From positions 32,001-96,000 of IMG/VR virus record IMGVR_UViG_3300028591_000003: DNA of 64,000 nucleotides; one strand, given 5' to 3'. Under the pieces are notes generated by a model. That model was not told the origin of the DNA. It did not search any database and saw only the letters and a list, made by a program, of their open reading frames with translations. The position numbers and the translations under genes are program-made. This document shows, piece after piece, positions 9,835 through 52,793 of the stretch (the first letter of the stretch is position 1; every line of letters starts with the position of its first letter). The DNA is from a virus. Lineage: Duplodnaviria; Caudoviricetes.

Positions 9835-10313
9835 TTTACTAAAAATTCATCTGACCATGTACTTTGTTTAGTTTTATAATTCTCCCAAGGCCAACTTTCT
9901 TTAGCTTTTTCTATATTGGGTTCATCACATCCATATGACGTATTGTTATAATAGTATAGATACCAAAGAACTTGTTCCCAATATTCATCTTCTCTATGTT
10001 CTTGATGTGGAAATAAAGTCCAATACCATATAAAATTCCATTTAAATAAATGAATCCATATATAAGGTGCTCTTTCAAATCTAGGACTATCATATTTGTC
10101 TTTCCATCCAACATCATTAAAGATTATATGAATTAAAGCTGGGTTAGAACACCATAGAACAGGGCTAGGAATTATATTTTTACTAAATTTAAATTTACAT
10201 TGTAATGGTTTAAAAACATTTTTGACTTTATTTAAAGTCTTTTTTGGATTTCTAATATCTATATAAAGATATTTTCTCCAATCTAAATAAAACCAATCTT
10301 TTCTTACATACAT
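9831..10313 (-). CDS. hypothetical Trp-rich protein
   Basis: ORF; ATG at 10313 preferred because the track start lies inside a terminator hairpin. Confidence 0.7.
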   Translation of the reverse strand: MYVRKDWFYLDWRKYLYIDIRNPKKTLNKVKNVFKPLQCKFKFSKNIIPSPVLWCSNPALIHIIFNDVGWKDKYDSPRFERAPYIWIHLFKWNFIWYWTLFPHQEHREDEYWEQVLWYLYYYNNTSYGCDEPNIEKAKESWPWENYKTKQSTWSDEFLVK

Positions 10314-11549: not shown

Positions 11550-11561
11550 ATATAAATATTG

Positions 11562-11632
11562 CGGGGATAGGGGGAATCGAACCCTCTCCTAAAAGTTAAC
11601 AGCTTCTTGCTCGACCTTCGAGCTATATCCCC
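11562..11632 (-). tRNA. trnN: tRNA-Asn(GTT)
   Basis: AGAAG-CTGTTAA-CTTTT; TTCGATT T-loop. Confidence 0.9.
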
Positions 11633-32756: not shown

Positions 32757-33008
32757 TTAATTACCAATTCTTTTAACAGTTATCACTAAGGTATCTCCAA
32801 TATTAAAATCTGTAGTATCACGGTAAGAATAATCATACCAATTACTACCACCTACTTTAATAAGATTATAGGTGAACTTTTCAGGCCTTTTACTTTTTGA
32901 TATTACTACATATTTTGCTCCGTTAATAATATCCAAACCTTCCATTGTCATATTATCACCACACCCAAACATCAAGACGGCAAGTACTAATAGAATAATC
33001 TTTTTCAT
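32757..33008 (-). CDS. putative lipoprotein
   Basis: Lipobox MFGC. Confidence 0.7.
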   Translation of the reverse strand: MKKIILLVLAVLMFGCGDNMTMEGLDIINGAKYVVISKSKRPEKFTYNLIKVGGSNWYDYSYRDTTDFNIGDTLVITVKRIGN

Positions 33009-33012
33009 AGTC

Positions 33013-33225
33013 TTATTTTTTTAGTTGTTCAATAGTATCTTTGATTATCCATAAAAGAGCCTTACCGTAGTCATTGAGAAGTTTGTCTTCTTTTGGAAGA
33101 ACCTCCTCTATTTCATCAAGCACATAGTTTGCACCTGTCTTATATGCCAAAAATGCAGCATTGTTAGTTACTGGATTTGTTATGTCAGAAGTATATTCTT
33201 CTGCCTTTTCTTTTATACTTTTCAT
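33013..33225 (-). CDS. hypothetical protein
   Basis: 70 aa ORF. Confidence 0.65.
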   Translation of the reverse strand: MKSIKEKAEEYTSDITNPVTNNAAFLAYKTGANYVLDEIEEVLPKEDKLLNDYGKALLWIIKDTIEQLKK

Positions 33226-33266
33226 ACGCTTTATTTCTTTAGTAGTTCAAATTTTCACTTAATTTA

Positions 33267-33312
33267 TAAAAAAAGAAAGGGAGTCCAATGGAAAACTCCA
33301 CCGAACTCCCTT
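33267..33312 (-). terminator. intrinsic terminator at end of RNA array
   Basis: AAGGGAGT...ACTCCCTT followed by TCTTTTTTT. Confidence 0.55.
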
Positions 33313-33323
33313 AAAAATCTATG

Positions 33324-33397
33324 TACATAGGGTAGGATTCGAACCTACGAAAGCTAGTTTGTAATACTAGATGCTTAAACCACTTGCATACCTATGC
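33324..33397 (-). tRNA. trnV: tRNA-Val(TAC)
   Basis: CTAGT-ATTACAA-ACTAG. Confidence 0.88.
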
Positions 33398-33403
33398 GTT
33401 AAG

Positions 33404-33516
33404 AGAGATACTTTATAATAATCAATGCAGGATTTGAACCTGCTACTTCAATTTTAACAAAATTGCGCTCTATCCATATGAGCTAATCGATCAAAATCAG
33501 TGTTGTAAGTATCTCT
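33404..33516 (-). ncRNA. ACUUACAA-module RNA: tRNA(GTT) cloverleaf enclosed by module stem
   Basis: AGAGATACTT-ACAACA...cloverleaf...AAGTATCTCT. Confidence 0.8.
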
Positions 33517-33735
33517 ATTCTCTAAAACAAATAGCTTCAAATAAAAAAGATGATGTTTACCAGACATCATCTGTTATTTACCAAAAATCTAGAATTTAGT
33601 AAACCTATTAGTTTTCGTCACGCAACCACTAACAAAACTCGTCTCTTCATATGGTCAAGAAATAACCCCGATTTCGCTCTTACATTGCTAAATCTAGTCA
33701 CAAATTCTGTTTTACATCTAGAATTAAGATGGGTG

Positions 33736-33807
33736 CGGTCTATGACGGTTACGATCCGTCCTCACTACTGTGACAGAGTAGTATCCTAACCAATGAACGA
33801 ATAGACC
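33736..33807 (-). tRNA. trnD: tRNA-Asp(GTC)
   Basis: CTACT-CTGTCAC-AGTAG; G73. Confidence 0.9.
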
Positions 33808-33813
33808 ATTATC

Positions 33814-34401
33814 TTATAGATTTATTAAACCTTTTTCTAACATTGCATGATGATTAGGGCATAGCCAAACTAAATTATTTTCATTATTTATTTCTTTAAT
33901 TAAAGTGTCTTCTGAAAATTCTAAAATTCCTTTTATATGATGTACTTCAAGTATTTCATCAAATTCATGATTTTTACAATAAGCACAAACTTTTTCTTTA
34001 TCAGATTTTTCTAATATTTTTCTTGCGTTTTTCCTAATTTCTCCACATTTAGTTGTGAGATATTTTTGTCCTGAAATATAATATCCTAAAGTTTTTTCTC
34101 CTATTGTTCCCCTTTTCTTGTTATAACATTCCAAACATATTTCAGAATGTACATCTTTAGGCTTTCCACATATAGGACAAATCTTATTAGGATTTTTTTC
34201 ATGTATATCTGTTCTGCCTTTGTTAAAGGTTTCAGATTCATTAATTATTCTTCTTCGAGGTAATTCAATTCCTAATTTTCTAGCAACTTTTTTAATATTA
34301 CTTCCAGAACAACCATATCTTCTACCTATTTCTTCATAACTGACTTTTTCTATATTTATAAGTCTTTCTAATTCTTCTTTTTCAGAATCCCATTTTGACA
34401 T
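33814..34401 (-). CDS. free-standing HNH endonuclease (HTH + Zn ribbon + HNH)
   Basis: EEIGRRYGCS HTH; CPIC..CLEC; CAYC..EVHH..NLVWLCPNHH. Confidence 0.9.
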   Translation of the reverse strand: MSKWDSEKEELERLINIEKVSYEEIGRRYGCSGSNIKKVARKLGIELPRRRIINESETFNKGRTDIHEKNPNKICPICGKPKDVHSEICLECYNKKRGTIGEKTLGYYISGQKYLTTKCGEIRKNARKILEKSDKEKVCAYCKNHEFDEILEVHHIKGILEFSEDTLIKEINNENNLVWLCPNHHAMLEKGLINL

Positions 34402-34435
34402 ATTTACAAACGAAGGGTTTTTAATCTTCGTACTA

Positions 34436-34466
34436 TAAATATACATTTTGAGTTCGAAAAATCAAA
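34436..34466 (-). promoter_or_regulatory. sigma-A-like promoter for HNH gene
   Basis: TTTG-N19-TATATTTA. Confidence 0.5.
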
Positions 34467-34519
34467 CTTAAACTTATAAATTTAAGAAATTTTAACAATT
34501 ATAAAATAATACAATTTAG

Positions 34520-35094
34520 TACACCAGGTAGGATTCGAACCTACGACCTACTGCTTCATACTACTCTATGTTGCCATAGCCAAACAATGTCCTATTCTTA
34601 GACGATTAGATTTCCATCCTGCTAGGCATTTCACCACGCATTTTGTTTGTTGTAGTCTGGAATACATTATTACCATATTGAAATCCTTGCAAGTAACTAA
34701 GTCCGTTCATTCCCTTCTCATTTCCATCATTTCTGATTTCTCGGGTGTCTTCTTAGTAATTTCAATTTAGGTATCTCCTCTATACTCTCTACACGTTTAT
34801 AAGAAATAAGTGTCCACTCCTACAACACCTTTCGCTATATAAGCTAATGCTTCCATCATACAATACAATGGTATTTCTTAATTTAGCACGGTATTATCCT
34901 TACACATTATTGATTAGTGTTGTTAATCCTGTACTGATTTAACAGCTTAATGAGCGAATTGTTAACATCATTGCTCACACTCTTAGAAAAAGGACTTCCA
35001 CCGTTTTAGGGAGATTCTACATAGGACTTTCGTGCCCATGCATCCAATTTATTTATAGAAGGCAGTTGCTCTAATCCAGCTGAGCTACTGGTGC
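34520..35094 (-). tRNA. trnR: tRNA-Arg(TCT), exons 35057-35094 and 34520-34556
   Basis: Joined halves give ACTGC-CTTCT|AA-GCAGT. Confidence 0.9.
34557..35056 (-). mobile_element. ORF-less group I intron (500 nt) in tRNA-Arg
   Basis: U|...G| ends; P3 AUCUCC/GGAGAU; P4 ACGGU/ACCGU; homologous to the tRNA-Leu intron. Confidence 0.9.
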
Positions 35095-35098
35095 TTAA

Positions 35099-35163
35099 AA
35101 AGATACTTATTTTTATAACCATCCTATATTTATGTTTTATTAAAAATAGTTGTAAGTATCTTT
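35099..35163 (-). ncRNA. ACUUACAA-module RNA, short form
   Basis: AAAGATACTT-ACAAC...AAGTATCTTT. Confidence 0.7.
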
Positions 35164-35229
35164 ATTAACTCTGGATTATCCAAAAACTCCTCTGTTAGGG
35201 AGAGGTGAGTTAATTACTCCAGTTAATAG

Positions 35230-35305
35230 TGGACCTGGAGGGGCATGATCCCTCAACCTTCTGGTTGCAAACCAGACGTTCTAGCCAAATTAGAACTACA
35301 AGCCC
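35230..35305 (-). tRNA. trnA: tRNA-Ala(TGC)
   Basis: TCTGG-TTTGCAA-CCAGA; G3.U70. Confidence 0.9.
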
Positions 35306-35312
35306 TTAAAAG

Positions 35313-35386
35313 TGCGATCACTGGGACTCGAACCCAGGCCACACGGATTAAAAATCCGTTGCTCTAGCCTACTGAGCTATGGTCGC
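35313..35386 (-). tRNA. trnK: tRNA-Lys(TTT)
   Basis: ACGGA-TTTTTAA-TCCGT. Confidence 0.9.
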
Positions 35387-35589
35387 AACTACCCAAGTAA
35401 ATAAAATTTAAATAGTCATCCATTTTGTTTGCTTTGGGTACTACTAGTTTATACTAGGAATTTAATTGATTACTCTAGTTACTATGTGGTAATCTGGGTT
35501 ATTTTCCCTCTAACACGGATAGCTTTTAAGGTATTAACTATCAGAACTCCTTTTATTCTTTAACGAGTTCAAAGGCTTACTCGGACTAG

Positions 35590-35661
35590 TCATCGGTAAG
35601 GGAATTGAACCCTTCTTGGCAGGTTGAAAACCTGTAGTCCTAACCACTAGACGAACCGACG
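35590..35661 (-). tRNA. trnE: tRNA-Glu(TTC)
   Basis: CAGG-TTTTCAA-CCTG. Confidence 0.9.
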
Positions 35662-35665
35662 ATAC

Positions 35666-35733
35666 AAGATACTTTCAACAACTAACCTAAACAATTTACA
35701 AACTATGAAAGTAATAAAAATTGTAAGTATCTT
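35666..35733 (-). ncRNA. ACUUACAA-module RNA, short form
   Basis: AAGATACTT-ACAAT...AAGTATCTT. Confidence 0.7.
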
Positions 35734-35759
35734 ATATTATAATTATGCCAAAAAAGGAG

Positions 35760-35830
35760 TTGCGGTCGTGTGATTCGAACACCGTTTCAAGGTTATGAGC
35801 CTTGCGAGCTACCATTGCTCCACCACCGCG
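35760..35830 (-). tRNA. trnfM: initiator-type tRNA-fMet(CAT)
   Basis: C1:A72 mismatch; CAAGG-CTCATAA-CCTTG. Confidence 0.8.
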
Positions 35831-36022
35831 ATATTAAAAAAGAATATTTGACATTACATAACGCTCTATGTATTCAATTGTTATGTTCTAAGAGTAATTT
35901 CACTTGTGCACAACTTTATAGTTACTCTCACCGGGTATTATGAGGCTTGATTCGCGAAAAACCCATAACTCTAACGGCAGTCTTTACCTTAGTTAGAGGG
36001 TCTTAAATATTCTTTTATGAGA

Positions 36023-36146
36023 AAGTTACTTAATAAATATTTGCATTAAACCACTATGCTAATCCGCAAACATGGAGCAGATAATGGATTCGAACCACTG
36101 ATACTTTTTTAAGTATAATATTTTTAACTAATATTGTAAGTAACTT
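36023..36146 (-). ncRNA. ACUUACAA-module RNA, circularly permuted tRNA (YrlA-like topology)
   Basis: Module stem, T-arm GGTTCGAATCC, acceptor ATCTGC/GCGGAT closed by a loop, D-arm GCATAGTGGTTTAATGC, closing strand. Confidence 0.82.
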
Positions 36147-36150
36147 ATAG

Positions 36151-36221
36151 TTGGAGATAGAGGAGTCGGACCTCTCTAATCAGGACCAAAATCTGAGGCA
36201 TTACCGCTATGCTAATCTCCA
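36151..36221 (-). tRNA. trnQ: tRNA-Gln(TTG)
   Basis: U1-A72; loop TTTTGGT. Confidence 0.88.
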
Positions 36222-36303
36222 ATTTACTACTACTTTTCATCTCGTGAGTAGCCAACGAGTGTTAAAACAGTTTAAATAGTTTATTAATGTCATCACGACA
36301 TCG

Positions 36304-36884
36304 TACGACAGGCGGGGATCGAACCCGCAAGATCTCTACAGACCTGAGGGATTTTCTTACCACTCTATGTTACCATAGCCAAACAAACACATTTTGTCGT
36401 TTAAAGCCGAGCAAGTTCTTAACTTCCATCTGATTTCACCCTTCAAAGAAGTTAATGCAGGCTTTTGTTTGTTGTGGTCTGGACTGTCTCTTTACCATAT
36501 TGAAATTCTTGCAAGTTCGTGACTTATCTCTATATATTGAGGGTTATCAAAAACCATTTTCTTTTGTCCTTATAAATTTCAACTTAGGTATCTCCCGTTC
36601 AGTCTCTACACGATTATAAGAAAAATATTCCTAAGAATATGGGTTGGGAATCGAACCCAACTTTACGCACCCGTAGGTGCACAGGATACCATTACCTGCC
36701 TACACTTCTTATTTTCGCTCGGTATAGTCCTACACATTATTTGTTAGTGTACAGTATTGGATTAAATTATGCACTGCTTTCACCTCAAGGATTTCCACCG
36801 AATTTAGGAGATTCTACTATGGGATTTCTCGCCATAGCACTCAATTTTCTAAGTCCCTTGTGTACACCATTCCACCACTGTCGC
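36304..36884 (-). tRNA. trnL: tRNA-Leu(TAA), exons 36851-36884 and 36304-36355
   Basis: Joined halves give AGGGA-CTT|AAAA-TCCCT with long variable arm. Confidence 0.9.
36356..36850 (-). mobile_element. ORF-less group I intron (495 nt) in tRNA-Leu anticodon
   Basis: U|...G|; P1 ACUU|A / UGAGU; R element AGAGACUG; S element AAGAGACAGUCC. Confidence 0.92.
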
Positions 36885-36886
36885 AT

Positions 36887-36968
36887 TTGAGATACTTAAA
36901 TTTATCTTTTACCAACACGTTGTTCCTATATTTATGTTTAATTAAATAAATATTTATAAGTATCTCAA
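36887..36968 (-). ncRNA. ACUUA(C/U)AA-module RNA, short form
   Basis: TTGAGATACTT-ATAAAT...AAGTATCTCAA. Confidence 0.7.
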
Positions 36969-37022
36969 GATGAACGTAAATAAATTTATTACTTAATTTT
37001 TAAAATCTATAGTTAAAAGATG

Positions 37023-37247
37023 TTAAATCAGTTTAGATAGATTCTGTTTTATGCTAGCGATTTCAGTCTTTAATCGTTCACATTCTTCATTATAACTACG
37101 TCCTTTATGATAGATAGTTCTACCATTTCGTGTTGAAGTCCAAGGTTTCTTGTCTTCACCAGCAGCTTTAAATTTTTCGTAAACTACTTCCAACCTTTGT
37201 AGTGCCATTCTTCTACGGACTACAATATTTCCTTTTCCTTTTGACAT
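37023..37247 (-). CDS. basic hypothetical protein
   Basis: 74 aa ORF. Confidence 0.65.
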   Translation of the reverse strand: MSKGKGNIVVRRRMALQRLEVVYEKFKAAGEDKKPWTSTRNGRTIYHKGRSYNEECERLKTEIASIKQNLSKLI

Positions 37248-37250
37248 ATT

Positions 37251-37550
37251 TTAAAAATGTTTTGTTATTAATTTATAAGAATAGTTATCAAATTTTCTCA
37301 TACATTTAGATTCAAATTTAAAAACTTTCTTAATTTCTTCTTCACTCATTCTAACAGACATATGTACTCTGTAAAATTTATCCCAAGAAAAAAGTCTATG
37401 TTTTATGACTTTAAATTTAATATTGTATCCATTCTCTTTAAAAATATCTGGAATAGAGAAAAGCATTCTGTCTTTAATAGAGTAATTCGGATTAGTCCCG
37501 ATATAATCGTAATAATCCTGAACTGTAAAAGCAATTCTATATTTTTCCAT
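37251..37550 (-). CDS. hypothetical protein
   Basis: 99 aa ORF. Confidence 0.65.
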   Translation of the reverse strand: MEKYRIAFTVQDYYDYIGTNPNYSIKDRMLFSIPDIFKENGYNIKFKVIKHRLFSWDKFYRVHMSVRMSEEEIKKVFKFESKCMRKFDNYSYKLITKHF

Positions 37551-37798
37551 TAAATATATTCTATGATCGTTGTTACTTTTTTAATTTCTATAGTATATTC
37601 TATAATAGTATGAAAATAATCATTATCTGGATAAGTATCATATTTATACTTATGAGTTTTAATGATTTCTTCAATATCATCTTCTTTAGGATTTAGTTTT
37701 TCCCATAAAGGAGCAAATTGTTGTTTAAAATAACGATGTCTCCATAATTGGAAATTATCATCATTAATACATTTAACAAAATATTCAACTTTTTCCAT
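37550..37798 (-). CDS. hypothetical protein
   Basis: 82 aa ORF; AACAATATG start context. Confidence 0.7.
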   Translation of the reverse strand: MEKVEYFVKCINDDNFQLWRHRYFKQQFAPLWEKLNPKEDDIEEIIKTHKYKYDTYPDNDYFHTIIEYTIEIKKVTTIIEYI

Positions 37799-38076
37799 AT
37801 TGTTTGTTGTTTGTTTAAAAATAAGAAGTGCGTTTCACAACGGACTTCTTTCTTGTAGATGAAAAGCCACTGCTTCTCCATAAATTTTAAAAATTTGAAT
37901 TAGTTCTATTATGATTTTCAATTACATTTTCAAAAAATTTTTCACTATCCTCACTTCCTTTAGAATCTAATCGCAGAACTTTCGACCTTAGAAGATATAC
38001 CAACGTACCCACCCAGGTTGAATAGGAAAACCACACTATTTTTAACGCGTATATTATTAGTGTGTAAAATAAATAG

Positions 38077-38209
38077 TCGGGGGACCAGGAATCGAACCTG
38101 GGACTTAGATTTATGAAATCCTTATTTTATTATGCTTTAAGATGTTGTAGGTATCAAAATGATACTAATGCTTTTATTTTCTTACATGTTACCACTACAC
38201 CATCCCCCA
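38077..38209 (-). ncRNA. tRNA scaffold with module in anticodon-arm position
   Basis: GGGGGA/TCCCCC acceptor, D-arm, TAAGA[..GTATC-ATTTT-GATAC-CTACAACA]TCTTA, T-arm CCAGG-TTCGATT-CCTGG. Confidence 0.78.
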
Positions 38210-38218
38210 TATAATAAA

Positions 38219-38350
38219 TCGGAAGGAGAGTTGGACTCGAACCAACAACACTTTGTTTAATAGACAAATACTCTAACCTCTTGAATTTATTAAATTATAA
38301 GTAACTCACGAAATTACTAGAATCAATTTTTATGTTGAGTTATCCGGCCA
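38219..38350 (-). ncRNA. tRNA(ATT)-like scaffold with module in D-loop
   Basis: ACTC..[AGTAATT-TCGTG-AGTTACT-TATAAT]..GGTTAGAGT; TTTGT-CTATTAA-ACAAA; T-arm; degenerate acceptor. Confidence 0.75.
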
Positions 38351-38496
38351 ATTTAATCCAAACTCTGTACAGAAACAGTTTCTTTCTTCATTATAGGTGC
38401 GTGTTATCCTAATTTTTACAGATTCAATGAAACTACCTACGTTTAGTTACATTATATCTGACCGCCAATTTCAATATCGCTGTTAGTTTGGATTAG

Positions 38497-38613
38497 TGGA
38501 GGGAGCAGGAATCGAACCTACATTATAGTCATTTTACGCATGATTAGAAATTTACTATGATTGAATGGTAAGTATCATATGATACTCGTCGTTACCAATA
38601 TTTCAATCCCTCC
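38497..38613 (-). ncRNA. tRNA scaffold with module in D-loop
   Basis: GGAGGGA/TCCCTCC-A; GAAAT[..GG..AGTATC-ATAT-GATACT-TACCAT..]ATTTC; T-arm. Confidence 0.75.
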
Positions 38614-38688
38614 AAATTAAAATTAGTAATCTATCTTCACAGACCAATTACTACTGTCAAACCTTAAAAAACATAACAAATTATGCAG

Positions 38689-38806
38689 CGGGGAGTACAA
38701 GAGTCGAACTTGCACTTCTGGAAAATCCCAGAAATTATGAAAGATGTTTTTGTAAGTAATAATTTACTACTCAACATAATCGGGCTTAACCATGCCCAAA
38801 CTCCCC
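38689..38806 (-). ncRNA. class-II tRNA scaffold with module replacing the anticodon loop
   Basis: GGGGAGT/ACTCCCC; ATTATG[..AGTAGTA-AAT-TATTACT-TACAAA..]CATAAT; long variable arm; T-arm. Confidence 0.8.
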
Positions 38807-38810
38807 TAAT

Positions 38811-38916
38811 TAAGATACTAGAAAATACATCTTGGAATCGAACCAAGTACACTCGGCGTTACGGCTGATGCTCTAACCAAATGAGCTAATGTGGTTATAT
38901 TATTGTAAGTATCTTA
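38811..38916 (-). ncRNA. ACUUACAA-module RNA enclosing a degenerate cloverleaf
   Basis: TAAGATACT-TACAATA..D-arm GCTCATTTGGTTAGAGC..T-arm CTTGG-TTCGATT-CCAAG..AGTATCTTA. Confidence 0.8.
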
Positions 38917-38974
38917 TTCGTCTCAAATAAAGAAATTATGATGCAGTTTTTCTTTTATCTGATGCACATCTAAA

Positions 38975-39367
38975 TCATTTTATACTATCATTTTTATTAA
39001 TAGACCAACTATCTACCCATTTGTCTAAAGCTTTTATACATTTATCTGGAAGTTGTTTTGCAGTTGGATTTGATTTAACATAATCAATAGTTCCACCAAC
39101 TCCATAAATAAGAAGTGCTTGATTTGTTGTAGGAATAAATATTTCTCCTAGACAGCAAACAAAGAAAATAGGTATTGTAAACCTAAGAATTTTAATTGAC
39201 AATTTTTGATACATTTTGTATTCAGTACGTTGGTCCTCAACTTCATTGCAATAGTTTACTAAATATACTATAAAAAATGCTATAGAAAGAATAATACTAG
39301 TAACAAGGAATATTGTTAAAACAGTACTGATTGAATCAAATCTTGTAATCCAATAAATTTCATTCAT
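38975..39367 (-). CDS. two-TM membrane protein
   Basis: YWITRFD, two hydrophobic helices, FIPTT. Confidence 0.78.
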   Translation of the reverse strand: MNEIYWITRFDSISTVLTIFLVTSIILSIAFFIVYLVNYCNEVEDQRTEYKMYQKLSIKILRFTIPIFFVCCLGEIFIPTTNQALLIYGVGGTIDYVKSNPTAKQLPDKCIKALDKWVDSWSINKNDSIK

Positions 39368-39386
39368 ATTATTAAATTTGTTTAAA

Positions 39387-39452
39387 AGGATACTAAAAAT
39401 GTCCCAATTAAAAGTTAGGTGCTTACTAGCAATTTAGTATTATAAGTATCCT
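39387..39452 (-). ncRNA. ACUUA(C/U)AA-module RNA, short form
   Basis: AGGATACT-TATAATA...AGTATCCT. Confidence 0.65.
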
Positions 39453-39483
39453 ATTTATTATGAAAGTAATTATTATAAAGTAA

Positions 39484-39604
39484 AAGTTACTTAGTAAAAA
39501 ACGTTGCTCTAAACCAAGCTGAGCTATCCCGAAACCCTCAGGAGTTGGATTTGAACCAACGACACACGGCTTACAAAGCTGATTCTTGATATTGTAAGTA
39601 ACTT
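39484..39604 (-). ncRNA. ACUUACAA-module RNA, circularly permuted tRNA (YrlA-like topology)
   Basis: AAGTTACTT-ACAATA..T-arm GTTGG-TTCAAAT-CCAAC, TCCTGA-loop-TCGGGA, D-arm GCTCAGCTTGGTTTAGAGC..AAGTAACTT. Confidence 0.82.
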
Positions 39605-39611
39605 AATTAGA

Positions 39612-39642
39612 AACTAGAGGAGGAATCGAACCTCCTCTAGTC
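39612..39642 (-). other. tRNA minihelix-like hairpin
   Basis: ACTAGAGGAGG-TTCGATT-CCTCCTCTAGT. Confidence 0.6.
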
Positions 39643-39661
39643 GTGATGCTTATTAAAAAAA

Positions 39662-41521
39662 TCAAAGGGTATTTGCTCTCACGAGTTCATACCTATTGCT
39701 TCTATAGAGACTCAACAGTGGAGTATAGACATCAAAGACATCCATATCCTTGAAGTTAGTCAGGAATTGCTCAATCATTGCTGGATTCGAAGGTATGTAC
39801 ATCATGTTGTCAATTCCACTAAATCGGTCTGCTCCAGCACTAGCACGAGAGCCAACAGCACCAGTAACATCCATAAGGATTACGTAAGGACGGAATCCAA
39901 AGAACCCCTCACACTGACGGAAGAAATCGTTCATACTCGCCTCTGGTGAATACATATTATTGAACATACCATCAGACATGATTGTCCATACAGGATAGTT
40001 ACGAAGAGCATCCTTAATCTCAGGATTTGCCTGACAAGCCTGGTTCAATCCCTTAGGAATACATGAAATATCAGTATTCCATCCCTGGAACTTACTTTGA
40101 AGGAAAGCAGAAATCCTCTTGTAATTATCCAGGAAACTAAGTTTAGGATCAACGAATGGTTGTGCCTTAGTCTTAGCTACCTTACTTCTTAAGATTGAGT
40201 TCTGAGATGTAGCCTGAGAATCAATGTAAGAATAGAAACGAGATGTTCCATCAAACATACCAACGAGATTACGAGCATCATCATCGGGATTCTTAACCAT
40301 ACATACTGCAGTAATAAAGGCAGCAAATCTGAATGGTGTACCACTCATAGAACCAGAACTGTCAATAATGGTCAGTGAATTATAAGGAAGATTAACCTTA
40401 TTCATAAAGGACTCAATCTTCAACTTATCAATTGTGCCACTAAGAATCTGGTTGTAGAGTTCAGTAAAGTTAGTAGCACCAATTGTTACCTTGGCCTCTT
40501 TCTTCACTTTCTCCAATTTAACCTTATCCTCCTCACTAGCCTGACCTTGACGAACCTTCTCTTCCAGAATACGTTGTTCTTGTTGCTTCTGCTCCTTATA
40601 AGTTTCCCATTCCTTGATCCAAGGCTGGAACTTAGCCCACTTAGATACTTCTGCAATAGCTACATTAGACTTTCCATCCAATCCAGCTGTCTCACAGTCT
40701 GCACCTACTACCTTGGAATAGAGGATTCTGTTCTTAACCCTGAACCTAGCCTGAGATGGGAGCTTGTCAAACCAGTCGATGAATTGCTGCTTGTCAAACT
40801 CATTTATCTTGCCAGTAGAGAAAAGTACAGATTCAAGAGAGCCATTGTACTGCTTTCGCCACTCACGATAACCCTTAAAATATTCCAGTTCCCATCCCAT
40901 CATCTTAGAGAGTTCAGTTAAGAAGTTCTTTTTCTCATTCATTACCTGAATAGTCTCAGGAAGAACTCTCTTATGACCTTGACGCTTACTGGTTCTTGGG
41001 ATAGTCAAGAACTTGGCAATCAATGTCTTATTGAACGGATTAGAACCGTTAATCACAGCATATGTATAGTCAAGAAGAGCCTTCACATACTCTTTATCTT
41101 GAAATGCATGATATATTTTCAGTACCTTCGAACCCTTAGTTTGAACTCGATTACGGAACAAAACATCAAAGCATGTATACTCATTAAAGAGTTGTGCATT
41201 TAAAAACTTGATGAATTGTTTCTTATCTTTTTTCCAAAGCCAGGTTGTGATAGTATAGAAAGCCTCACGATTGGCATTACCACCACTGTCAACCTTCTTC
41301 TTTTTAAAGATGTTGTGCTGACGATTAGTAATGTCTCCAATAGAGAACAGGATTGAGAAGAAAAGTTCTCTCTTTTCTTTAGAGTTCTTTACTTCAAGCC
41401 ATGCATCATTCAGAAGAACCTCTGAAATAACTGCATCAGTTGATGCCTGCTGAAGTTGCAGACATCTGCGAAGTCCGTAAAACGGATTGTTACTTTTTTT
41501 ATTAAGTTCTACTTGTACCAT
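39662..41521 (-). CDS. DUF2828/TROVE(Ro60)-like helical domain plus vWA domain protein
   Basis: MIDAS IIDSSGSM...NTD...MSDGMF; N-terminal pattern AW...LF...DI...GG...RE.F, AKF...PR, KLPSQA recognised by eye as DUF2828-like. Confidence 0.75.
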   Translation of the reverse strand: MVQVELNKKSNNPFYGLRRCLQLQQASTDAVISEVLLNDAWLEVKNSKEKRELFFSILFSIGDITNRQHNIFKKKKVDSGGNANREAFYTITTWLWKKDKKQFIKFLNAQLFNEYTCFDVLFRNRVQTKGSKVLKIYHAFQDKEYVKALLDYTYAVINGSNPFNKTLIAKFLTIPRTSKRQGHKRVLPETIQVMNEKKNFLTELSKMMGWELEYFKGYREWRKQYNGSLESVLFSTGKINEFDKQQFIDWFDKLPSQARFRVKNRILYSKVVGADCETAGLDGKSNVAIAEVSKWAKFQPWIKEWETYKEQKQQEQRILEEKVRQGQASEEDKVKLEKVKKEAKVTIGATNFTELYNQILSGTIDKLKIESFMNKVNLPYNSLTIIDSSGSMSGTPFRFAAFITAVCMVKNPDDDARNLVGMFDGTSRFYSYIDSQATSQNSILRSKVAKTKAQPFVDPKLSFLDNYKRISAFLQSKFQGWNTDISCIPKGLNQACQANPEIKDALRNYPVWTIMSDGMFNNMYSPEASMNDFFRQCEGFFGFRPYVILMDVTGAVGSRASAGADRFSGIDNMMYIPSNPAMIEQFLTNFKDMDVFDVYTPLLSLYRSNRYELVRANTL

Positions 41522-41992
41522 TGTTTTAAATTTATTATTTGTAAGTAACTAATTAAATAAATTTCCTACATCTGTTTTATAGCAATTAACTCGTTCAATC
41601 TACTAAAGAGATTCTACTAAAGTGCAGATTCTCACTGCTTTTCTATTTTACAGTCTCCATCACGTTGCTTTACGTATCACAATGACCTCAATCACATGTT
41701 TGCCACTACAAGGTCTTTCAACTGTCAATTCAGTATGCCCATTGAAGGTTCAATATTGGAATTCCCTTCAGCCCTCGGAAATTTATTATAAATTAAAATA
41801 CTATCTAACGCTATAAACGCAGGAGTTGGCAACACCCTTTTCTCCCTAGCATAAGTTAATATGCCTCCAATTCGACCAATAGATAGTATTTTATCTGAAA
41901 AAGAGTGGCTTCGAGCGGTTTTATCTCTACTTCACCCGCGCTATAGTTTCCGCACACGTGGTTCCGGTATCAAGCTTCACTCTTATTCTTGT

Positions 41993-42430
41993 TTAGTTGA
42001 ACTCTTCCGTAGAATCCATAGCAGCAAGCTCTGCCTCCATCTCCTTAATACGATCCTCAGGAGTTTTGGTGGACTCTTTAAGTTCAGCGAGCTTCTCAGT
42101 AAGCTCTGCCTTCTTACGGCGACTCTCTGCGAGTTCAAGATGGTAGCGCTTGAAACCTACAATGAGATTTACAAGTTCCTTCATCTCCTTGAGAGAATCG
42201 AGTTCAGTAGTGTTAACTTCTACCCATTCATCCTTGTTCTCAAGATTCTGAATCTTAGTTGAAAGACCAGCCTTGATATTGTTCAGGGTGTTAATACTTG
42301 TTGTGTGAATCAACTCTACAATGTTAAGTGGAGCACCCATTTTAGTAGAGATTGTACTGTTTGTCATGAGCATCTTAAGAGCAAGCTCACACATCTTGCT
42401 GTAATGCTCTTTTGTGAAATTTATTTTCAT
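41993..42430 (-). CDS. coiled-coil hypothetical protein
   Basis: 145 aa; GC-richer codon usage like the vWA gene. Confidence 0.8.
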   Translation of the reverse strand: MKINFTKEHYSKMCELALKMLMTNSTISTKMGAPLNIVELIHTTSINTLNNIKAGLSTKIQNLENKDEWVEVNTTELDSLKEMKELVNLIVGFKRYHLELAESRRKKAELTEKLAELKESTKTPEDRIKEMEAELAAMDSTEEFN

Positions 42431-52700: not shown

Positions 52701-52776
52701 TGGGGCGTAGTCGAGCGGCTTCAGACTGGAGACTCTAAATCTCTGCATTACGCGGGTTCGAATCCTGCCACCCCAA
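52701..52776 (+). tRNA. amber suppressor tRNA(CTA), probably Gln-accepting
   Basis: GGAGA-CTCTAAA-TCTCT; U1-A72, G2-C71, G3-C70 as in tRNA-Gln. Confidence 0.92.
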
Positions 52777-52793
52777 CTAGACGTAAATGAATT

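What the first reader, a model, noticed from the sequence alone, without database searches (positions are those of the whole stretch)
33404..33516. Intact tRNA-Asn(GUU) cloverleaf caged by the module stem (also 38811-38916)
Seen: leader and trailer pair over 10 bp beyond the acceptor stem. A normal tRNA-Asn exists at 11562, so this copy is redundant. Inference: either a pure mimic or a protein-gated precursor whose maturation is blocked or released.
Basis: partly seen in the sequence, partly recalled or inferred. Interest (0 to 1): 0.7.

Follow-up and report, generated by a model that had tools for sequence, protein, structure and literature searches.

The report
Phage tRNA look-alike locked by handle
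A large gut-type phage carries a second, perfectly folded "asparagine tRNA" whose two ends are clamped by a short conserved stem shared by a dozen neighbouring small RNAs next to a Ro60-like RNA-binding protein, so it is most likely a tRNA mimic (a new form of Y RNA) and not a working tRNA.

Summary
On the minus strand, 33418-33493 is a full tRNA-Asn(GUU) cloverleaf (Rfam tRNA 58.9 bits). Its leader (33516-33507) and trailer (33413-33404) form a perfect 10-bp stem. 38811-38916 is a degraded copy of the same design.

The stem is a conserved "handle", G-NN-ACUUACAA paired to AGU-N'N'-C:
- Ten of its 13 minus-strand copies in the complete 176-kb genome lie in 33.5-41.6 kb of the window.
- It recurs downstream of homologues of one 619-aa gene in 36 related viral contigs.
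- Its two variable pairs covary: 47 of 52 cases match exactly, against about 11 on permutation.

That gene's model has a MIDAS vWA domain behind helical repeats, and its best structural matches are Ro60/Rsr. Two handle RNAs have YrlA topology (below Rfam's threshold).

Handle-enclosed ("caged") cloverleaves differ from the phages' free tRNAs:
- AU-rich, often 8-bp acceptor stems
- C74 in 26% against 95%
- more odd anticodon loops
- anticodons that change between near-identical orthologues

Best reading (about 0.6): a Y-RNA-like tRNA mimic, not a decoder. A protein-gated real pre-tRNA (about 0.2) is not excluded. No expression data could be obtained. Earlier notes of this scan on the same genome reached the same Ro60-like reading. 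I rate it a new variant of a known kind.

The parts
33404..33516 (-). Whole module: handle stem enclosing a tRNA-Asn(GUU) cloverleaf
33503..33516 (-). 5' handle strand AGAGAUACUU (33516-33507) plus the conserved unpaired ACAA (33506-33503); exact match to the motif AGATACTTACAA
   Evidence: exact hit at 33503-33514; G, ACUUA and AA invariant in 35 modules
33404..33413 (-). 3' handle strand AAGUAUCUCU, 10 bp with the 5' strand
   Evidence: covariation
33418..33493 (-). tRNA-like cloverleaf. 8-bp AU-rich acceptor (one G:C, two G.U), canonical D and T arms, 7-nt anticodon loop with GUU at 33458-33456. The acceptor is followed by UUAU (no C74, no CCA)
33323..33397 (-). Ordinary tRNA-Val(UAC) starting 6 nt after the last paired base of the handle (33404). 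The same slot is kept in relatives L001, L002, L003 and L005
38811..38916 (-). Second caged cloverleaf, degenerate: 9-bp handle, intact D and T arms, 6-nt anticodon loop, mismatched acceptor
39662..41521 (-). 619-aa protein: N-terminal helical repeats plus a C-terminal vWA domain with a DxSGS MIDAS motif. Ro60-like architecture; presumed handle-binding partner
41489..41549 (-). Handle hairpin (GUUACUUACAA ... AAGUAAC) enclosing the start codon of the 619-aa gene
   Evidence: same arrangement in at least 25 of the 37 sequences
39472..39603 (-). Handle RNA with YrlA topology (T arm, loop-closed acceptor, D arm), directly downstream of the 619-aa gene
   Evidence: RF02553, 39 bits, E 6.5e-6, below the gathering score of 69
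36023..36146 (-). Second permuted (YrlA-type) tRNA-like RNA inside a GUUACUUA/UAAGUAAC handle
11561..11632 (-). The phage's ordinary tRNA-Asn(GUU): 7-bp acceptor with four G:C pairs, G73, C74. Used as the comparison

Best explanation
The caged tRNA-Asn is one member of a family of small non-coding RNAs that a metagenome-only group of large phages encodes next to a very divergent Ro60-like protein (helical-repeat domain plus MIDAS vWA domain). Every member carries the same short 'handle': a 7-11 bp stem G-NN-ACUU / AGU-N'N'-C followed on the 5' strand by unpaired UACAA. I infer that the handle docks the protein, as the conserved stem of a Y RNA docks Ro60. The handle encloses different cargos: plain hairpins, circularly permuted tRNA-like domains (YrlA type) and, here, a complete non-permuted cloverleaf. 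In this member the handle sits just outside the acceptor stem. The RNA therefore has no free acceptor end and presents only the tRNA elbow (D/T arms) and an anticodon loop. It acts as a tRNA mimic, not as a decoder. It could tether the protein to something that recognises tRNAs, or compete with tRNAs for such a factor. SHOWN: the cloverleaf, the stem and its covariation, the clustering next to the gene, the vWA/MIDAS domain, and the systematic differences from the phages' real tRNAs. INFERRED: transcription as RNA, binding of the handle by the protein, absence of processing and charging, and the downstream effect.
For: 1. The handle is a selected RNA stem.
- In 35 aligned caged cloverleaves from the window and the viral contigs, all 245 stem cells pair. 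The two middle pairs switch among AU/UA/CG/GC (26 double changes; 0 of 500 shuffles reach this; slid controls pair in only 20-44% of cells).
- That set was chosen using complementarity, so I ran an unbiased test. Of 52 tRNA calls that merely have the 5' motif upstream, 47 have the exactly complementary AGUNNC just after the tRNA. Permutation gives a mean of 11.2 and a maximum of 22.

2. The handle is linked to the protein gene.
- Ten of the 13 minus-strand motif copies in the complete 176-kb genome lie in 33.5-41.6 kb of the window, on the gene's strand.
- In the related viral contigs the motif clusters directly downstream of the homologous gene. In most of them it also forms a hairpin over that gene's start codon.

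3. The protein looks like Ro60.
- A DxSGS MIDAS motif is invariant.
- The nine best Foldseek PDB matches of the full model are all Ro60/Rsr/TROVE, over the full length (E 1e-5 to 1e-3).
- VIA-align gives 9kop Z 12.5 over 339 residues and phage phiLo Ro60 (9l5y) Z 10.5 over 384 residues.

4. YrlA-type RNAs carry the same handle: 39472-39590 (RF02553, 39 bits, E 6.5e-6), 36023-36146, and L028:13103-13220 (35.5 bits).

5. Caged cloverleaves are not like the phages' real tRNAs (47 caged against 299 free).
- Acceptor G:C pairs: 1.04 against 3.45.
- 8-nt acceptor: 22/47 against 10/299.
- At least one acceptor mismatch: 29/47 against 47/299.
- Anticodon loop not 7 nt: 7/47 against 6/299.
- C74: 12/47 against 285/299, Fisher p 1.7e-26.
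- In this window all 22 free tRNAs have C74, while the caged Asn has UUAU.

6. The anticodon is not conserved.
- The slot just upstream of tRNA-Val holds GUU (window), GCU (L001), UUU (L002, L005) and GAU (L003).
- Two pairs have identical bodies but different anticodons.
- Near-identical pairs differ at 0.47-0.56 per site in the anticodon, against 0.05-0.09 in the rest of the body.
- The 'Ser(GCU)' forms have no long variable arm.

7. Caged cloverleaves form their own family. 38 of 47 are closer to a caged RNA with another anticodon than to any free tRNA. The caged and free Asn of the window share only 44 of 83 aligned positions.

8. Asn(GUU) is redundant in this complete genome.
Against: - No expression, end-mapping or binding data exist.
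- This particular copy is a flawless cloverleaf: 58.9 bits against 56.8 for the free Asn, a 7-nt loop with U33 and A37, and no mismatch. On its own it cannot be told from a real tRNA gene. The case against decoding rests mainly on the family and on the acceptor end.
- The internal loop (13 nt / 5 nt) between handle and acceptor could still let RNase P and RNase Z in. M. smegmatis YrlA is cleaved by RNase P and receives CCA (PMC4201824).
- The Ro60 assignment is structural only. Pfam TROVE does not hit the protein or the genome. The N-terminal domain modelled alone gives only generic HEAT/MIF4G-type matches (Z at most 6.9). TM-scores of the full-length matches are low (about 0.3).
- The handle lacks the GNCGAA motif of bacterial Y RNAs.
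- Many aminoacyl-tRNA synthetases read the anticodon, so anticodon switching could also make new working tRNAs.
Confidence: 0.6

Rival explanations
1. Protein-gated real pre-tRNA. The cloverleaf is a working tRNA-Asn gene. Leader-trailer pairing, stabilised by the vWA/Ro60-like protein, blocks RNase P and RNase Z until the protein leaves. The tRNA is then matured, given CCA by the host enzyme and charged.
For: - Perfect cloverleaf with a canonical anticodon loop.
- It sits in a tRNA array, 6 nt upstream of a real tRNA-Val, between two terminator-like hairpins.
- The 13/5-nt internal loop leaves the cleavage sites partly single-stranded.
- Several of the anticodons seen in caged forms (Asn, Lys, Ile, Glu, Gln, Thr, Pro) belong to systems in which the anticodon is a main identity element (established knowledge).
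Against: - The acceptor end differs from all 22 free tRNAs of the same phage: no C74, U or A instead of the G73 of the free Asn, one G:C pair, 8 bp.
- Orthologues change anticodon with no other change. They include forms that could not be charged as labelled (Ser without a long arm) and 6- or 8-nt loops.
- The genome already has a tRNA-Asn(GUU).
- No CCA-adding enzyme is encoded by the phage; this is weak evidence, since the host has one.
Confidence: 0.2
2. The handle is a processing, stability or regulatory hairpin of the tRNA operon that works without the vWA protein, for example an endonuclease site or a punctuation element. The enclosed cloverleaf would be a decaying tRNA pseudogene trapped in its loop.
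For: - Plain handle hairpins lie a few nt upstream of real tRNAs: 35160-35102 and 36964-36891 before intron-bearing tRNAs, and 35732-35665 before tRNA-Glu.
- 18 of 149 distinct modules have a tRNA within 12 nt downstream.
- Binding to the protein has not been shown.
Against: - D and T arms, U33 and the handle's unpaired UACAA are strongly conserved across 35 modules, which is not what pseudogenes show.
- The handle is also grafted onto permuted YrlA-type RNAs and onto the protein gene's own start region.
- Most modules are not next to a tRNA.
- A 7-11 bp stem is short for RNase III (established knowledge).
Confidence: 0.12
3. DNA-level element. The inverted repeats are ends of a small mobile or recombination cassette that carries tRNA-like cargo, with no RNA function.
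For: Short inverted repeats flank variable cargo in many copies. HNH and GIY-YIG endonuclease genes are nearby.
Against: - Only 7-11 bp are complementary, and the conserved UACAA has no partner.
- All copies have one orientation on the transcribed strand.
- Pairing tolerates G.U, which points to RNA.
- Orthologous copies keep their position.
Confidence: 0.03

Closest known systems
YrlA-type bacterial and phage Y RNAs with Ro60/Rsr (Chen et al. 2014, PMC4201824; Rfam RF02553)
   Same: Small RNAs encoded beside a Ro60-type gene, several per locus. The 5' and 3' ends form a conserved stem that encloses a tRNA-like domain with canonical D and T arms. Two handle RNAs of this window have exactly the YrlA order T arm, closed acceptor, D arm.
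   Different: - This member is not permuted. It is a full cloverleaf with an anticodon arm, and the stem extends the acceptor end instead of taking the anticodon-arm position.
- The handle sequence (G-NN-ACUUACAA) is unrelated to the GNCGAA(N)G motif.
- Rfam YrlA does not hit this module.
- The protein is not recognised by Pfam TROVE.
- There are about a dozen RNAs per genome instead of 1-4.
Thermus phage phiLo Ro60 with Yrl1/Yrl2 (PMC12135203; PDB 9KOP, 9L5Y)
   Same: A phage-encoded HEAT-repeat plus vWA ring protein with adjacent Y-like RNAs. 9KOP and 9L5Y give the longest alignments to the model of the 619-aa protein (Z 12.5 over 339 residues; Z 10.5 over 384 residues).
   Different: About 10-12% identity and low TM-score. 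The phiLo Yrl RNAs were found through a CGAA motif, and the passages I read do not describe them as tRNA cloverleaves.
Ordinary phage tRNA genes in arrays
   Same: Cloverleaf of 76 nt that scores above Rfam's tRNA threshold, lying inside a tRNA array on the same strand.
   Different: AU-rich 8-bp acceptor, no C74, leader-trailer stem, redundant anticodon, and an anticodon that is not conserved among orthologues.
Other tRNA mimics (tmRNA tRNA-like domain, viral 3' tRNA-like structures); from general knowledge
   Same: RNA that copies the tRNA L-shape in order to engage tRNA-recognising factors.
   Different: Those mimics keep a free, chargeable acceptor end and lack a true anticodon loop. Here it is the reverse: the acceptor end is closed and the anticodon loop is canonical.

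Membership tests
tRNA (functional decoder) | Cloverleaf that scores above the Rfam RF00005 gathering score | tested here: met
   58.9 bits against a threshold of 29; ARAGORN Asn(gtt)
tRNA (functional decoder) | Acceptor end like the genome's own tRNAs (7 bp, G:C-rich, N73-C74) | tested here: not met
   8 bp, one G:C pair, followed by UUAU. All 22 free tRNAs of the window have C74. Across the family C74 is 26% in caged against 95% in free tRNAs
tRNA (functional decoder) | Anticodon conserved among orthologues | tested here: not met
   The syntenic slot holds GUU, GCU, UUU or GAU. Bodies can be identical while anticodons differ
tRNA (functional decoder) | Processed to a CCA end and aminoacylated | not testable with these tools
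   No read data
YrlA / Y RNA (RF02553) | Encoded next to a Ro60 orthologue | tested here: inconclusive
   Same strand, 6.1 kb downstream of a Ro60-like gene, within one array of handle RNAs. The Ro60 orthology itself rests on structure only
YrlA / Y RNA (RF02553) | The 5' and 3' ends form a conserved protein-binding stem | tested here: met
   10-bp stem with a conserved, covarying handle. Binding itself was not tested
YrlA / Y RNA (RF02553) | GNCGAA(N0-1)G motif in the 5' strand | tested here: not met
   The 5' strand reads AGAGAUACUUACAA. The motif is as defined in PMC4201824
YrlA / Y RNA (RF02553) | Permuted order T arm, loop-closed acceptor, D arm; a covariance-model hit | tested here: not met
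   This module has the normal tRNA order, and the E<=1 scan of 33000-42000 gives no RF02553 hit on it. Its neighbours 39472-39590 and 36023-36146 do have the permuted order
Ro60 / TROVE protein (partner gene 39662-41521) | C-terminal vWA domain with MIDAS | tested here: met
   Invariant DxSGS; vWA matches at Z about 10
Ro60 / TROVE protein (partner gene 39662-41521) | N-terminal TROVE HEAT-repeat ring | tested here: inconclusive
   The top nine full-length Foldseek hits are Ro60/TROVE, and 339-384 residues align to 9kop and 9l5y. However, Pfam TROVE gives no hit, and the N-domain alone gives only generic solenoid matches

The most novel reading that the evidence does not exclude
The caged cloverleaves are anticodon-display decoys. 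The handle, with the bound Ro60-like protein, holds an uncharged and uncleavable tRNA body. Its anticodon loop is offered to anticodon-specific host factors, such as tRNA-cleaving defence nucleases or modification enzymes. The triplet is under diversifying selection as hosts change: it is the fastest-evolving part of the RNA, while U33 and A37 are kept. The Asn(GUU) copy would then protect or sense the Asn/AAY decoding system.
Probability: 0.2. Interest if true: 0.9.

Novelty: new variant of a known kind. Interest (0 to 1): 0.68.

Why it matters
What the tRNA-like part of bacterial Y RNAs does is still open. Here a natural series places the same presumed protein handle on hairpins, on permuted tRNA-like domains and on complete cloverleaves with changing anticodons. 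This happens in a widespread phage group known only from metagenomes: more than 1,200 homologues of the protein, and none in 50,697 GenBank phage records. If the handle binds the Ro60-like protein, three things follow. It extends Ro60/Y-RNA particles to a branch that sequence profiles cannot see. It shows that a Y RNA can carry a whole tRNA with a live-looking anticodon loop. And it gives a simple test of whether such RNAs act on tRNA-recognising machinery, including tRNA-directed host defences. It is also a practical warning for annotation: tRNA finders will count these RNAs as phage tRNA genes.

Tried and rejected
- Promoter reading of the motif. UACAAU resembles a -10 box, but I rejected this. 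The partner strand covaries, and a transcript starting after the motif could not form the stem. The sigma-70 scan shows no enrichment.
- Recent duplicate of the free tRNA-Asn. Rejected: 44 of 83 aligned positions are identical.
- Closer relative for a fine-scale comparison. The contig of P0001 (92% identity) has no DNA on hand.
- Sequence-level assignment of the protein.
  - Pfam gives no hit and PHROGs only one weak unnamed match (E 0.0022).
  - A phmmer search and an alignment-profile search against PDB sequences give only weak vWA hits.
  - Pfam on all 27 aligned members gives noise (DUF2828 at E 0.068 in two members).
  - The TROVE HMM on the whole genome gives nothing at E<=10.
  - tblastn against GenBank phages gives nothing.
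  - ESM Atlas neighbours partly carry DUF2828/DUF7788. This is only a lead, and the literature on DUF2828 is uninformative.
- N-terminal domain modelled alone: only generic helical-repeat matches.
- RNA-repair context: no RtcB, Rnl2-type ligase or CCA-adding enzyme in the genome.
- The idea that modules are generally released by RNase P cleavage of a downstream tRNA: only 18 of 149 modules have a tRNA within 12 nt, so this is not a general rule.
- Complex prediction was not used, because it does not model protein-RNA pairs.

Full report
WHAT IS THERE

The window is AT-rich (about 26-38% GC). It is bases 32001-96000 of a complete 176,443-bp virus record with direct terminal repeats. All 24 tRNAs that ARAGORN finds in that genome lie in the window, nearly all on the minus strand.

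At the coordinates of the finding, ARAGORN calls tRNA-Asn(gtt) at 33418-33493 (-), and Rfam's tRNA model scores 58.9 bits. Reading the minus strand, the leader AGAGAUACUU (33516-33507) pairs with the trailer AAGUAUCUCU (33413-33404).
- The stem appears in the MFE and centroid folds (z -3.26).
- The full 'handle plus cloverleaf' structure costs -26.6 kcal/mol against an MFE of -29.0.
- The acceptor helix is 8 bp, with one G:C and two G.U pairs. It is separated from the handle by an internal loop of 13 nt (5' side) and 5 nt (3' side).

A canonical tRNA-Asn(GUU) with a G:C-rich 7-bp acceptor, G73 and C74 lies at 11561-11632. The two share only 44 of 83 aligned positions.

The second site, 38811-38916, has a 9-bp handle around a body with intact D and T arms. 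Its anticodon loop is 6 nt and its acceptor is mismatched. It is a degenerate sibling, not an intact tRNA.

THE STEM IS A SHARED, SELECTED 'HANDLE'

The 12-mer AGATACTTACAA, and near variants of it, recur on the minus strand at 33514, 35161, 35732, 36145, 36965, 38914, 39451, 39603 and 41550 (37 matches at up to 2 mismatches against 15.6 expected). Genome-wide, 10 of the 13 minus-strand matches to G-NN-ACTTA[CT]AA fall between 33.5 and 41.6 kb of the window. In each case a complementary AGU-N'N'-C follows after 40-110 nt.

The enclosed sequence varies:
- short hairpins (35160-35102, 35732-35665, 36964-36891)
- permuted tRNA-like domains (36146-36023, 39603-39486)
- cloverleaves (this finding and 38916-38811)

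The 619-aa ORF at 39662-41521 has more than 1,200 homologues in metagenomes. Thirty-six IMG/VR loci that carry it were fetched. In these, the motif clusters on the gene's strand directly downstream of the gene. In most of them it also lies about 30 nt upstream of the start codon, with its partner inside the first codons.

An alignment of 35 caged cloverleaves (A2) shows:
- invariant G, ACUUA and AA in the 5' strand
- invariant AGU..C in the 3' strand
- two middle pairs that switch among AU, UA, CG and GC, with no broken pair

Those modules had been picked by complementarity, so I made an unbiased count. Among 52 distinct tRNA calls that only have the 5' motif upstream, 47 have the exactly complementary hexamer right after the tRNA. 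Permuting arms among modules gives a mean of 11.2 and a maximum of 22. Two more pair through G.U. This is an RNA helix under selection. It is neither a promoter nor a chance repeat.

THE NEIGHBOURING PROTEIN

Pfam, PHROGs and PDB sequence searches do not place the 619-aa protein. It has no match in 50,697 GenBank phage records. Its alignment has an invariant DxSGS MIDAS motif.

An AlphaFold model (pLDDT 74) gives Ro60 structures as its nine best Foldseek matches, over the full length. They include Xenopus and human Ro60, Deinococcus Rsr and Thermus phage phiLo Ro60 (E 1e-5 to 1e-3, but TM about 0.3). VIA-align ranks the phiLo TROVE protein first (Z 12.5, 339 residues) and gives 384 aligned residues for 9l5y.

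The N-terminal 375 residues modelled alone (pLDDT 78) match only generic HEAT/MIF4G solenoids (Z at most 6.9). The vWA part is therefore solid and the overall Ro60-like build is likely, but TROVE membership is not proven.

Independent support comes from the RNA side. The handle RNA just downstream of the gene (39472-39590) matches Rfam YrlA over the whole model, with the order T arm, closed acceptor, D arm (39 bits, E 6.5e-6, below the gathering score of 69). A relative has a similar hit (L028, 35.5 bits). YrlA RNAs are the tRNA-like Y RNAs encoded next to bacterial and phage Ro60 genes (PMC4201824). Phage Ro60 with adjacent Y-like RNAs has also been shown for phiLo (PMC12135203).

IS THE CAGED ASN A tRNA OR A MIMIC?

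I compared 47 distinct caged cloverleaves with 299 free tRNAs from the same sequences.

| Feature | Caged (47) | Free (299) |
|---|---|---|
| Mean G:C pairs in the acceptor | 1.04 | 3.45 |
| 8-position acceptor | 22 | 10 |
| At least one acceptor mismatch | 29 | 47 |
| Anticodon loop not 7 nt | 7 | 6 |
| C at position 74 | 12 (26%) | 285 (95%) |

The C74 difference gives Fisher p 1.7e-26. In this window all 22 free tRNAs have C74, and the caged Asn is followed by UUAU.

The caged RNAs form their own family. 38 of 47 are closer to a caged RNA with a different anticodon than to any free tRNA (mean 0.83 against 0.70 identity to free tRNAs with the same anticodon). This count is conservative, because a few caged ones were misfiled as free.

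The anticodon is not conserved:
- The slot immediately upstream of tRNA-Val(UAC) holds GUU in the window, GCU in L001, UUU in L002 and L005, and GAU in L003.
- L003 and L005 carry a module that is identical except for UUC against UUG. L027 and L032 carry one that is identical except in the anticodon loop.
- Among pairs with at least 85-90% body identity, the triplet differs at 0.47-0.56 per site. The unpaired linkers differ at 0.20-0.26, and the D/T/acceptor body at 0.05-0.07.
- These pairs are not independent, so this is only suggestive of diversifying selection. It does rule out purifying selection for one amino-acid identity.
- U33 and A37 stay conserved.
- The 'Ser(GCU)' forms lack the long variable arm that seryl identity needs (established knowledge).

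Finally, Asn(GUU) is the only redundant elongator anticodon in this complete genome.

HOW IT MOST LIKELY WORKS

Shown: a conserved, covarying stem closes the acceptor end of a well-formed cloverleaf. The same stem tags a dozen RNAs and also the leader of the adjacent gene for a Ro60-like protein.

Inferred: the stem with its unpaired UACAA is the docking site of that protein, as in Y RNAs. The hairpin over the gene's own start codon fits feedback control by the same protein. With its ends held in the handle, the Asn module cannot be charged. It offers the tRNA elbow and an anticodon loop to whatever recognises tRNAs, either as a tether for the protein or as a competitor.

I put this at about 0.6. 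The gated-precursor idea stays at about 0.2, because this copy is flawless and the internal loop could admit RNase P or RNase Z, as happens with M. smegmatis YrlA (PMC4201824). A protein-independent processing hairpin with a trapped pseudogene is at about 0.12, and a DNA-level cassette at about 0.03. These are less likely for the reasons given under the rival explanations.

COMPARISON AND NOVELTY

The nearest known system is Ro60/Rsr with YrlA. This module differs in four ways:
- Topology: a full, non-permuted cloverleaf, with the stem on the acceptor side.
- Handle sequence: no GNCGAA motif.
- Number of RNAs per genome.
- A protein that sequence profiles cannot detect.

Searches of the held literature found no description of this family or of Y RNAs that carry a complete cloverleaf. 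Earlier notes of this scan on the same genome independently describe the handle-tagged RNAs and the Ro60-like protein. My tests of covariation, acceptor-end features and anticodon turnover add to them and agree with them.

I class the finding as a new variant of a known kind.

Noticed in passing
window 52701-52777 (+): tRNA with anticodon CUA (an amber suppressor; ARAGORN labels it 'Pyl'; Rfam tRNA 44.1 bits). Similar ones occur in relatives L004, L005, L026, L030 and L035. This hints at TAG reassignment in part of the genome.
   Followed up: no
window 34519-35092 and about 36305-36880 (-): Two tRNA genes are split by related inserts of about 500-570 nt (repeat families D3, D5, D6, D9; 72-91% identical). 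They are probably group I introns in the anticodon loop. Rfam Intron_gpI gave no hit here at E<=1, but gave a hit below the gathering score in L019:14667-14899. An HNH endonuclease ORF lies at 33814-34446.
   Followed up: partly
window 41489-41549 (-); about 9966-10023 in most loci L004-L036: A handle hairpin encloses the start codon of the Ro60-like gene in at least 25 of the 37 sequences. This suggests translational feedback by the protein on its own mRNA.
   Followed up: partly
window-wide and loci L001-L036: Free tRNA genes of these phages encode C74 in 285 of 299 cases but a full CCA in only 8. This is a sharp rule of unknown reason, and it separates real tRNAs from the mimics.
   Followed up: partly
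window 37990-38810 (-): Four tRNA-like bodies carry a closed version of the handle (for example GAGUAUCA-UA-UGAUACUUACCA) inside the D loop or the anticodon arm. The same motif is thus grafted 'inside out'.
   Followed up: no
L012:5733, L015:7542, L015:8338, L019:12208, L029:12302, L033:12208: Caged cloverleaves with 8-nt anticodon loops (ARAGORN 'tttg', 'ttct', 'ttgg') recur in several relatives. They may be degenerate, or they may read four bases.
   Followed up: no
L002:19136-19530, L027:8689-9199, L033:7882-8223; L019:12298-12414: ARAGORN tmRNA calls, and one partial Rfam tmRNA hit, lie beside the handle-RNA arrays of relatives.
   Followed up: no
window 33548-33572 and 33277-33312 (-): Terminator-like hairpins with U runs bracket the pair 'Asn module plus tRNA-Val'. 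The pair may therefore be its own small transcription unit.
   Followed up: no
L003:23-95 (+): RAGATH-1 hammerhead ribozyme hit below the gathering score (40.5 bits, E 0.003).
   Followed up: no
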